Source: Candidatus Blautia faecigallinarum (GTDB lineage Bacteria; Bacillota; Clostridia; Lachnospirales; Lachnospiraceae). From it: a DNA stretch of 64,000 nt. Both the position numbers and the translations under genes were made by a program. Under the pieces are notes generated by a model. That model saw only the letters and a list, made by a program, of their open reading frames with translations. It searched no databases and was not told the DNA's origin. The DNA is taken from contig DXBU01000017.1 of the NCBI GenBank assembly GCA_019116385.1, positions 2,930 to 66,929 on the forward strand, read 5' to 3'. This document shows, in pieces, positions 1,044 to 1,555 of the stretch (positions within the stretch are counted from its first letter, which is position 1; every line of letters starts with the position of its first letter).

Positions 1044-1185
1044 CTGTTGTACGGGAACCGCGCGGCCGGAAAAAGAAAACCGCCGCTCTGTCTGTATTTT
1101 TTACATAAAATGAAAAATATGGGGATATTTTTGCAGGAATAACGTCTAATCTATGTTTGTCTATGTTTGTGGTAAAAGAATTATT

Positions 1186-1214
1186 TTGACATTTCTGTGG
1201 GTACATGATAATAT
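1186..1214 (+). promoter_or_regulatory. SigA-type promoter of candidate antitoxin RNA
   Basis: TTGACA (1186-1191), 17-bp spacer, extended -10 TGnTAATAT (1206-1214). No protein ORF follows before a terminator. Confidence 0.65.
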
Positions 1215-1220
1215 GATTGT

Positions 1221-1309
1221 AGAAAGAGTGCTGCCGATAGACGGTTAGCCCATATACTTAATTGATTAAAAATAACCGTTCAGTTTGCGAGGCTGGGGCG
1301 GTTATTTTT
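1221..1309 (+). ncRNA. Candidate type I antitoxin small RNA
   Basis: About 90 nt between a consensus promoter and a bidirectional terminator. Its 3' end is antisense to the last codons and terminator of the small toxin-like ORF. Ends are inferred, not measured. Confidence 0.55.
1268..1309. terminator. Bidirectional terminator shared by toxin mRNA and antisense RNA
   Basis: aaaaataaccg ... cggttattttt inverted repeat with A/T tracts on both sides. The toxin stop codon lies within the stem. Confidence 0.75.
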
Positions 1310-1400
1310 GTGTCTTGTTATTATCTTTTCCGAATGTGTATCCGGCACAAAAGCAGGTTATGCCGAAGCTAACAACTGCAATGAAATCCAAAATACTCAT
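1302..1400 (-). CDS. Small hydrophobic peptide, candidate type I toxin (MSILDFIAVVSFGITCFCAGYTFGKDNNKTQK, 32 aa); absent from the ORF track
   Basis: Translated by hand. Strong RBS AAAAGGAGG about 8 nt upstream, one hydrophobic helix followed by a polar Lys-containing tail, own promoter and terminator. Confidence 0.75.
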   Translation of the reverse strand: MSILDFIAVVSFGITCFCAGYTFGKDNNKTQK

Positions 1401-1526
1401 TGGCTTGGCCCTCCTTTTGAGAGATTTCCGCCAGAATGTTCTGGGGATTTCTATGTAATCGGAGGGTCACAGTCCCTCCGTTGAAGGACTAACCGCCTAC
1501 CGCTTTTTGGCAGCACCCATGCATTG

Positions 1527-1555
1527 ATTATACCAATGGAAACATAGGGCTGCAA
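1527..1555 (-). promoter_or_regulatory. SigA-type promoter of the small peptide gene
   Basis: Minus strand TTGCAG-17 bp-TATAAT with TG extension, implying a ~120-nt structured 5' UTR. Confidence 0.7.

What the first reader, a model, noticed from the sequence alone, without database searches (positions are those of the whole stretch)
1186..1555. Unannotated candidate type I toxin-antitoxin module downstream of tuf
Seen in sequence: a 32-aa ORF missed by the ORF track (1302-1400, minus; MSILDFIAVVSFGITCFCAGYTFGKDNNKTQK) with a strong RBS, one hydrophobic helix and a polar tail. It has its own TTGCAG-N17-TATAAT promoter and a ~120-nt leader. A second consensus promoter on the plus strand faces it and would give a ~90-nt non-coding RNA ending in the same bidirectional terminator, so the two 3' ends overlap by about 40 nt. 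Established: Firmicutes type I systems (TxpA/RatA, Fst/par, C. difficile modules) have this convergent layout. Inference: this is a membrane-toxin/antisense pair, and I cannot place the peptide in a characterised family.
Basis: partly seen in the sequence, partly recalled or inferred. Interest (0 to 1): 0.8.

Follow-up and report, generated by a model that had tools for sequence, protein, structure and literature searches.

The report
Unnamed small toxin–antisense RNA gene pair
A 370-bp cassette downstream of tuf in a gut Blautia encodes a conserved 32-residue membrane peptide facing a conserved small-RNA gene, the layout of a type I toxin-antitoxin pair; the same unnamed cassette occurs, often in several copies and on mobile elements, in about a quarter of Lachnospiraceae genera sampled.

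Summary
The ORF, RBS, both promoters and the shared terminator sit at the stated coordinates.

It is not chance. The promoter-to-promoter cassette is kept at 75-86% identity in 17 of 36 other Blautia species genomes, often in 2-4 copies with unrelated flanks. The reading frame is under purifying selection (pN 0.085 vs pS 0.45). 75 of 86 related loci carry the facing RNA's 5' motif.

The peptide family occurs at 460 sites in species-representative genomes. It is named only "hypothetical", and has no Pfam, NCBIfam or Rfam match. The leader RNA occurs in 80 of 301 Lachnospiraceae genus representatives.

Many copies lie about 170-200 bp inside the right end of mobilisable elements inserted in the 3' end of tuf. 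The window's copy is a solo one.

The invariant 5' motif GGUUAGUCCUUC of the toxin leader is complementary to the ribosome-binding site and spacer, and the small RNA carries the same motif. A leader model also finds cassettes encoding TxpA/BsrG-type (Hol_Tox) peptides. This peptide itself is not Hol_Tox.

Most likely this is a new type I toxin-antitoxin family.

The parts
1527..1555 (-). Toxin promoter: -35 TTGCAG (1550-1555), 17-nt spacer, extended -10 TGgTATAAT (1527-1535)
   Evidence: Read. TTGCA-N-TGnTATAAT (2 or fewer mismatches) is present in 70 of 86 related loci. It is conserved in the alignment while the spacer varies.
1401..1520 (-). About 120-nt structured toxin leader: 5' hairpin P1; anti-SD 1 GGUUAGUCCUUC (1483-1494); hairpin pseudo-SD/anti-SD 2 (1460-1480); small hairpin; SD plus spacer GGAGGGCCAAGCC (1402-1414)
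   Evidence: MFE z = -2.6. RNAalifold consensus and pair counts: 98-99% of cells paired in both alternative SD-sequestering folds, against 34-62% for slid controls. Covariance model R1 hits 80 of 301 Lachnospiraceae genus representatives.
1302..1400 (-). 32-aa peptide gene (putative toxin): hydrophobic helix, G20xxxG24, polar tail KDNNKTQK. The stop codon lies in the terminator stem
   Evidence: (pS 0.45, pN 0.085). AlphaFold predicts a single helix at residues 3-29, mean pLDDT 82.
1268..1309 (.). Shared bidirectional intrinsic terminator. Region of perfect complementarity between the two RNAs (about 45 nt, covering the last 4-5 codons)
   Evidence: (I15, 11 of 11 bp), (-82 kcal/mol duplex; compensatory AU to GC changes).
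1186..1214 (+). Promoter of the facing small RNA: TTGACA, 17-nt spacer, TGaTAATAT
   Evidence: 10 of 12 plus TG. A strict pattern is present in 67 of 86 related loci. Hexamers are conserved and the spacer is variable.
1221..1311 (+). Putative antitoxin RNA of about 90 nt: A-rich 5' end, conserved 5' hairpin domain GUGCUGCCGAUAGACGGUUAGCCC (1228-1251) that repeats the toxin leader's 5' hairpin and anti-SD motif, a variable linker, then the terminator
   Evidence: I2, I3; motif in 75 of 86 loci, 46-58 nt after the stop; one at 82 nt. Ends are predicted, not measured.

Best explanation
This is a type I toxin-antitoxin cassette of a previously unnamed family, in the convergent 3'-overlapping layout typical of Firmicutes.

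The minus strand gives an mRNA of about 250 nt for a 32-residue single-helix membrane peptide. Its 120-nt leader keeps the ribosome-binding site closed by one of two internal anti-SD sequences: the 5'-proximal GGUUAGUCCUUC or the downstream CCCUCC. The primary transcript is therefore poorly translated.

The plus strand gives an RNA of about 90 nt from a stronger promoter. Its 3' 45 nt are perfectly complementary to the toxin mRNA's last codons and terminator. By analogy with TxpA/RatA and BsrG/SR4, this duplex should trigger RNase III-type decay. Its conserved 5' domain is a copy of the mRNA's own 5' hairpin plus anti-SD motif. That domain could close the ribosome-binding site in trans. Alternatively it could pair with read-through toxin transcripts and release the cis anti-SD.

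If the unstable RNA is lost, for example with the mobile element that often carries the cassette, the peptide is made and damages the membrane.

Shown here: conservation, coding selection, promoters, terminator, complementarities, copy number and mobile-element context. Inferred: transcription, toxicity, RNA-mediated neutralisation and the role of the 5' domain.
For: - ORF, RBS, promoters and terminator are present.
- The cassette is conserved from promoter to promoter with unrelated flanks, in 17 of 36 other Blautia species genomes, with up to 4 matches per genome and tandem pairs.
- The frame is kept in all copies. pS is 0.45 against pN 0.085, and variable columns by codon position are 12/5/25.
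- The peptide family has 460 sites in species representatives across Lachnospiraceae, 15 viral-catalogue contigs and 476 clusters at 50% identity.
- The RNA 5' motif accompanies the ORF in 75 of 86 loci, and the promoter in 67 of 86.
- The terminator covaries.
- The leader folds so that the SD is paired in both alternative structures, with 98-99% of cells paired. An optional 52-nt insert sits exactly in a predicted hairpin loop.
- Cis anti-SD:SD duplexes are -11 to -20 kcal/mol and sRNA motif:SD duplexes -4.5 to -17 kcal/mol (mostly -11 to -15) across variants.
- The leader model finds the same RNA scaffold in front of other hydrophobic peptides. One scores above the Pfam Hol_Tox cut-off (25.1 bits). 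My recalled TxpA and BsrG sequences score 31-34 bits on that model.
- The cassette sits 170-200 bp inside attR of elements integrated in tuf. One of these is an 8.6-kb integrase/Mob_Pre mobilisable element.
- The peptide is predicted to be one helix.
Against:
- There are no toxicity data.
- The peptide matches no toxin family, and the RNA matches no Rfam antitoxin family.
- Outside the 45-nt overlap, sRNA-mRNA complementarity is no better than shuffles by energy alone (-25.6 vs mean -24.2 kcal/mol). The proposed trans anti-SD contact therefore rests on conservation, not thermodynamics.
- Several copies, including the window's, are solo chromosomal cassettes between housekeeping genes. An addiction role is then not obvious.
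Confidence: 0.72

Rival explanations
1. A non-toxic small membrane protein, for example a modulator of a transporter or sensor or a stress peptide, whose expression is tuned by a cis-antisense RNA. The architecture is the same, but there is no toxin-antitoxin (addiction or growth-arrest) biology.
For: Several copies are solo cassettes between housekeeping genes. The peptide has no similarity to any known toxin. Some candidate type I toxins are reported as non-toxic on overproduction, e.g. YhzE-2 in PMC2887945.
Against: Copy number, tandem pairs and placement at the ends of mobilisable elements fit selfish modules better than a housekeeping regulator. A double lock on the SD plus an antisense RNA is heavy repression for a harmless peptide. 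The same RNA scaffold serves Hol_Tox-type peptides.
Confidence: 0.15
2. The conserved inverted repeat (1228-1251 / 1486-1516) acts at the DNA level. It would be two operator sites for one regulator just downstream of both start sites, or the ends of a small mobile cassette, and not RNA motifs. The plus-strand RNA would then act only through the 3' overlap, or would be incidental.
For: The two arms evolve in concert even in distant cassettes with other peptides. Cassette boundaries coincide with the two promoters and the flanks are unrelated.
Against: The motif is complementary to the SD plus spacer of the same mRNA, and that spacer is itself conserved. In 72 of 74 arm pairs the toxin-sense duplex is about 10-15 kcal/mol better than the opposite sense, because mismatches are G-U in that sense. 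By distinct kinds of difference the bias is weaker, 16 vs 11. The conserved block extends beyond the repeat to both promoters. No transposase or target duplication was seen.
Confidence: 0.08
3. A secreted or signalling peptide (bacteriocin-like or quorum peptide) gene with an antisense regulator.
For: It is small and conserved, and cysteine and glycine are nearly or fully invariant (C16, G13, G20, G24).
Against: There is no leader or cleavage motif. No processing, export or immunity genes recur next to it. The hydrophobic core runs from residue 3 with a basic polar tail, as in membrane-inserted type I toxins.
Confidence: 0.03

Closest known systems
TxpA/RatA and BsrG/SR4 (Bacillus subtilis; Pfam Hol_Tox PF16935; also reported as TxpA-like in Clostridiales, PMC2887945)
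   Same: Convergent genes overlap at their 3' ends, and the antisense RNA covers the end of the ORF. The peptide is a small single-helix peptide with a basic tail. Both are located on integrated mobile elements (PMC6563280). Cassettes with a homologous leader scaffold encode Hol_Tox-scoring peptides. The window's own genome has a Hol_Tox locus with the same mirrored 5' motifs and a weak Rfam BsrG match.
   Different: The peptide is not detected by the Hol_Tox model, and profile-profile comparison gives no alignment. The overlap is only about 45 nt. The most conserved part of the RNA lies outside the overlap.
Fst / par RNA I-RNA II (Enterococcus faecalis pAD1)
   Same: The two convergent RNAs share one bidirectional terminator. 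Contacts are expected both at the terminator and near the translation start. A 5' structure in the toxin mRNA hides the ribosome-binding site. These par features are from my own knowledge. T1TAdb (PMC8594479) states that in this family the interaction lies outside the overlap.
   Different: In par the 5' repeats are direct in the DNA, so the RNAs are directly complementary there. Here the repeat is inverted in the DNA, so the two RNAs carry the same sequence, and complementarity to the SD region arises because that sequence is an anti-SD. There is no Fst family match.
SprA1/SprA1AS (Staphylococcus aureus)
   Same: It is a 3'-overlapping cis-antisense pair. The functional contact is made in trans by the non-overlapping 5' domain of the RNA with the toxin's translation initiation region (from my own knowledge of Sayed et al. 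2012; cited).
   Different: There is no sequence relation. Here the 5' domain duplicates the mRNA's own cis anti-SD, and its action is only predicted.
Clostridioides difficile prophage type I modules (CD0956.2/RCd10 and others)
   Same: They are Clostridia modules encoding small hydrophobic peptides with charged tails, lie on prophages or skin-like elements, and are proposed to stabilise those elements (PMC6563280).
   Different: The peptides are longer (about 50 aa) and the RNA arrangement differs. Sequences were not compared here.

Membership tests
Type I toxin-antitoxin system (general definition) | Small hydrophobic protein (under 60 aa) with a predicted transmembrane helix and a charged or polar C-terminus | tested here: met
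   32 aa, helix at residues 3-29, tail KDNNKTQK. The coding frame is under purifying selection.
Type I toxin-antitoxin system (general definition) | An antisense RNA gene overlapping or adjacent to the toxin gene, with base complementarity to the toxin mRNA | tested here: met
   Conserved facing promoter, 5' domain and terminator. 45-nt perfect complementarity. This is sequence level only.
Type I toxin-antitoxin system (general definition) | Both RNAs are expressed, with the antitoxin RNA in excess and unstable | not testable with these tools
Promoter strength only suggests a stronger sRNA promoter.
Type I toxin-antitoxin system (general definition) | Overexpression of the peptide is toxic, and the RNA prevents this | not testable with these tools
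   Requires an experiment.
TxpA/BsrG family (Pfam Hol_Tox, PF16935) | The peptide matches the family profile (N-terminal M-x-T/V-Y-E-x-L motif) | tested here: not met
   No hit at E up to 10. A six-frame scan of the genome hits C99 but not this ORF. hhalign probability is 0.4%.
TxpA/BsrG family (Pfam Hol_Tox, PF16935) | Convergent 3'-overlapping antisense RNA covering the ORF end, located on mobile elements | tested here: met
Fst/par (RNA I/RNA II) | Shared bidirectional terminator between the convergent RNAs | tested here: met
Fst/par (RNA I/RNA II) | Direct DNA repeats at the 5' ends giving directly complementary RNA segments around the toxin start codon; Fst-type peptide | tested here: not met
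   The repeat is inverted in the DNA, so it is same-sense in the RNAs. There is no NCBIfam Fst match.
Rfam antitoxin and toxin-mRNA families (RatA, SR4-type, BsrG, par and others) | Covariance-model match | tested here: not met
   No relevant hit at E up to 10 in 800-1800.
SprA1/SprA1AS-like mode of action | The non-overlapping 5' domain of the RNA pairs with the toxin SD or start region | tested here: inconclusive
   The motif GGUUAG(U/C)CC is complementary to GGGCUAAGCC, at -4.5 to -17 kcal/mol (mostly -11 to -15), and is conserved. It is no better than shuffles on energy alone. A rival fold-back explanation is not excluded.

The most novel reading that the evidence does not exclude
The antitoxin RNA works mainly through a 'mirror lock'. 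Its conserved 5' domain is a duplicated copy of the toxin mRNA's own 5' hairpin plus anti-SD. It would close the ribosome-binding site in trans once the cis lock is lost. Alternatively it would compete for a 27-bp 5'-3' fold-back in read-through toxin transcripts that would otherwise free the SD. This design would be shared by a superfamily of Clostridia cassettes that swap unrelated toxin peptides (this family, Hol_Tox-type and others) onto one RNA scaffold.
Probability: 0.3. Interest if true: 0.7.

Novelty: new member of a known kind. Interest (0 to 1): 0.6.

Why it matters
[quoted passage not shown] Three literature searches found none. [quoted passage not shown]

This cassette is present in about a quarter of genera sampled, and its peptides are seen on a thousand or more contigs each. 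Databases call them only "hypothetical protein".

It marks the ends of mobilisable elements that target tuf, so it may help keep such elements in gut bacteria.

Its RNA design, in which the antitoxin repeats the toxin's own anti-SD, gives a compact and testable model for how 3'-overlapping antisense RNAs control translation at a distance.

Tried and rejected
- Rfam on the region found only noise.
- Pfam and NCBIfam on the peptide found nothing.
- The Hol_Tox resemblance (M-S-x-x-D/E ... F-G) that I recalled was tested and rejected.
- A MITE or spurious ORF was rejected by codon-position selection and by the conserved promoters lying outside the repeat.
- Extra sRNA-mRNA complementarity outside the overlap, judged by duplex energy, is not above shuffles.
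- The search for an empty site downstream of tuf in close relatives failed. Synteny breaks right after the tuf terminator, so it remains open whether the window's copy was inserted or is a relic.
- The G-U asymmetry test for a toxin-sense 5'-3' fold-back was strong by energy (72 of 74 arm pairs) but weak by distinct kinds of difference (16 G-U type, 11 A-C type, 21 transversions). I count it as suggestive only.
- The 52-nt leader insert as a genome-wide repeat was rejected: only 0-2 copies per genome.
- A literature search for the peptide strings and for type I systems in Blautia or Lachnospiraceae found nothing relevant.
- The search for homologous proteins refuses queries under 40 aa.

Full report
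**1. The observation**

Reading the window and listing ORFs confirms the 32-codon ORF at 1302-1400 on the minus strand. It has an AAAGGAGGG Shine-Dalgarno sequence 8 nt upstream.
- The minus-strand promoter is TTGCAG (1550-1555), a 17-nt spacer, then TGgTATAAT (1527-1535).
- Its -35 is weak (3 of 6), so the consensus scan did not list it, but the extended -10 is perfect.
- The plus-strand promoter is TTGACA (1186), a 17-nt spacer, then TAATAT (1214) with an upstream TG. It scores 10 of 12.
- An 11-bp perfect inverted repeat at 1268-1278/1299-1309 has A/T runs on both sides and forms a bidirectional terminator.
- The predicted RNAs are about 250 nt (1520 to about 1268, minus strand) and about 90 nt (1221 to about 1311, plus strand).
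- They would share about 45 nt of perfect complementarity covering the last 4-5 codons.

**2. Is it real?**

A search of 60 relatives found the whole cassette, from one -35 to the other, at 75-86% identity in 17 of 36 other same-genus genomes. There were up to four matches per genome, on different contigs and with unrelated flanks. Record titles identify the genus as Blautia.
- The reading frame is intact with the same length in all 16 aligned copies.
- Pairwise pS is 0.45 against pN 0.085. Variable columns by codon position are 12, 5 and 25 of 32. The two other frames show no such pattern. The ORF is therefore a real gene.
- A back-translated pattern scan found 460 sites in species-representative genomes: Blautia, Coprococcus, Roseburia, Fusicatenibacter, Anaerostipes, Jingyaoa and many uncultured Lachnospiraceae. 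It also found 15 sites on IMG/VR contigs.
- A profile search found 476 clusters at 50% identity.
- Exact-sequence look-ups show each common variant on up to 1000 contigs, named only "hypothetical" or "uncharacterized".
- Of 86 loci with full flanks, 75 have the plus-strand RNA's 5' motif, in 74 of them 46-58 nt beyond the stop codon. 67 have its promoter under a strict pattern, and 70 have the toxin promoter.
- The RNA alignment shows an invariant 5' domain, a linker free to vary in length and sequence, and a terminator with compensatory changes, AU:17 vs GC:15 at one pair.

**3. Context**

In many Blautia genomes the cassette lies 170-200 bp before a 53-nt copy of the 3' end of tuf, followed by a copy of the tuf terminator. 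The real tuf lies 8-40 kb upstream.
- This is the signature of elements integrated into the 3' end of tuf.
- About 22 of 95 related loci show the same attR-proximal position.
- One such element (G018:C13, 8.6 kb) encodes an HTH regulator, a tyrosine integrase, an AAA_25 protein, a Mob_Pre relaxase, TnpV, DUF6483 and SdpI. The cassette follows these. It is an integrative mobilisable element.
- Other copies sit next to TnpV or integrase genes, and others between housekeeping genes.
- The window's copy is of the solo type: tuf, tuf terminator, cassette, oxidoreductase. It has no second att copy and unique flanks. L100 and L102 have the same layout, and probably L058, whose contig ends within tuf.

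**4. The leader**

The single-sequence fold pairs CCCUCC (anti-SD 2) with the SD (z = -2.6).
- The alignment fold instead pairs the invariant 5'-proximal GGUUAGUCCUUC (anti-SD 1, window 1483-1494) with GGAGGGCU(A)AGCC, the SD plus the conserved spacer. That is 12 bp.
- In that fold, GAGGG (a pseudo-SD) pairs with anti-SD 2 in a local hairpin.
- Pair counts show both structures are 98-99% pairable across 23 diverse leaders, against 34-62% for slid controls. There are a few compensatory changes: pair 52-76 AU/GC, pair 71-133 CG/UA, and the small hairpin at 90-91/113-114.
- The SD is blocked in either fold.
- An optional structured insert of about 52 nt sits exactly in the loop of the pseudo-SD/anti-SD 2 hairpin. 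It occurs in either orientation and is not a genome-wide repeat.

**5. The mirrored motif**

The plus-strand RNA's conserved 5' domain, GAGUGCUACCGAUAGACGGUUAGUCC, is same-sense similar to the first 35 nt of the toxin leader: the 5' hairpin plus anti-SD 1. In the DNA this is an inverted repeat (I2/I3). Two RNA-level readings fit.
- **(a) Trans anti-SD.** The RNA carries the mRNA's own anti-SD and can pair with the SD and spacer.
  - Duplex energies are -4.5 to -17 kcal/mol, mostly -11 to -15.
  - The frequent U-to-C variant, as in the window, turns a G-U pair into a G-C pair in that duplex.
- **(b) Fold-back.** If toxin transcripts read through the shared terminator, the complement of the RNA gene forms a 27-bp helix with the leader's 5' end. 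The SD is then no longer held by either anti-SD. Antisense pairing to that 3' extension would release anti-SD 1 to close the SD.
  - In 72 of 74 distinct arm pairs the toxin-sense duplex is about 10-15 kcal/mol more stable than the opposite sense, because the mismatches are G-U.
  - Counted as distinct kinds of difference the bias is modest: 16 G-U type, 11 A-C type, 21 transversions.
- By energy alone there is no significant complementarity outside the overlap.
- I cannot decide between (a) and (b). Both make the 5' domain a translational controller, as in par RNA II or SprA1AS, where the interaction lies outside the overlap (PMC8594479).

**6. Relatives with other peptides**

A covariance model of the leader (R1) hits 80 of 301 Lachnospiraceae genus representatives. 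One genome has up to nine copies, including tandem pairs. It also hits a few genomes in other families of the class.
- The more distant hits keep the architecture but encode other hydrophobic peptides. Where the contig extends far enough, they keep the stop codon in the terminator stem and a mirrored arm that changes in concert with the leader (e.g. GGGAACUACC in both arms).
- One of these peptides (MITYEELF...) passes the Pfam Hol_Tox cut-off at 25.1 bits, and another is just below it at 21.4 bits.
- My recalled TxpA and BsrG sequences score 31-34 bits on the same model.
- The window's own genome has a true Hol_Tox locus (46.9 bits). It has a weak Rfam BsrG match and the same mirrored 5' motifs.
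- The window's peptide is not Hol_Tox: no HMM hit and no profile-profile signal.
- The regulatory RNA scaffold therefore appears to be shared among cassettes with unrelated toxins.

**7. The peptide**

AlphaFold with the family alignment gives one helix over residues 3-29, with pLDDT 92 over the first 20 residues.
- F12, G13, T15, C16, F17, G20, Y21 and G24 are invariant in the 20-sequence alignment. G20xxxG24 is a helix-packing motif.
- The conserved KTQK tail is partly constrained by the RNA terminator's U-tract on the other strand.

**8. Verdict**

The cassette is best described as a new family of type I toxin-antitoxin modules, widespread in gut Lachnospiraceae and frequently carried by tuf-integrating mobilisable elements.

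No paper describing this peptide or such systems in Blautia or Lachnospiraceae was found.

Noticed in passing
L131 (G018:C13:32300-42300); also G010:C54, G031:C8, G002:C1, G036:C62: Integrative mobilisable elements of 8-40 kb are inserted in the 3' end of tuf in many Blautia genomes. They are bounded by a 53-nt copy of the tuf 3' end plus a copy of the tuf terminator, and are sometimes in tandem. The 8.6-kb example carries HTH, tyrosine integrase, AAA_25, Mob_Pre, TnpV, DUF6483 and SdpI genes.
   Followed up: partly
L056, L035, L105 and others (one orientation) vs L073, L088, L058 (opposite orientation); own genome C61:470-525 (L010): An optional structured insert of about 52 nt sits in the loop of a leader hairpin. 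Its core hairpin is GAGTGCC-NNN-GGCACTC, with compensatory variants. It occurs in either orientation at nearly the same site, with only 0-2 copies per genome. Its origin and function are unknown.
   Followed up: partly
L010 (G000:C61) 432-752: The window's genome holds a second, paralogous toxin-type leader (62 bits with model R1). It precedes a different 52-aa ORF (MSYFEMLSIVLIILGI...) and lies next to the C-terminus of a tyrosine recombinase and a MarR-like gene. It has no mirrored RNA arm and no terminator, so it is probably a recombined or broken cassette.
   Followed up: partly
L133 (G000:C99:6768-9108), peptide at C99:8268-8360: A genuine Hol_Tox (TxpA/BsrG-type) peptide gene lies in the same genome, beside a tRNA gene cluster. 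It has a sub-threshold Rfam BsrG match and a facing RNA whose 5' end repeats the toxin leader's 5' end (GAACAACCG...AGCCUC). This is the same 'mirror' design in a different toxin family.
   Followed up: partly
window 1150-1169: A perfect tandem duplication, TCTATGTTTG x2, lies just upstream of the small RNA's -35 box (D7). It is not present in other copies of the cassette.
   Followed up: no
G520: C65:12520-13043, C207:2391-2904 and five other contigs: One Lachnospiraceae genome carries nine hits of the leader model, including two tandem pairs about 400 bp apart. This is a local expansion of the cassette.
   Followed up: no
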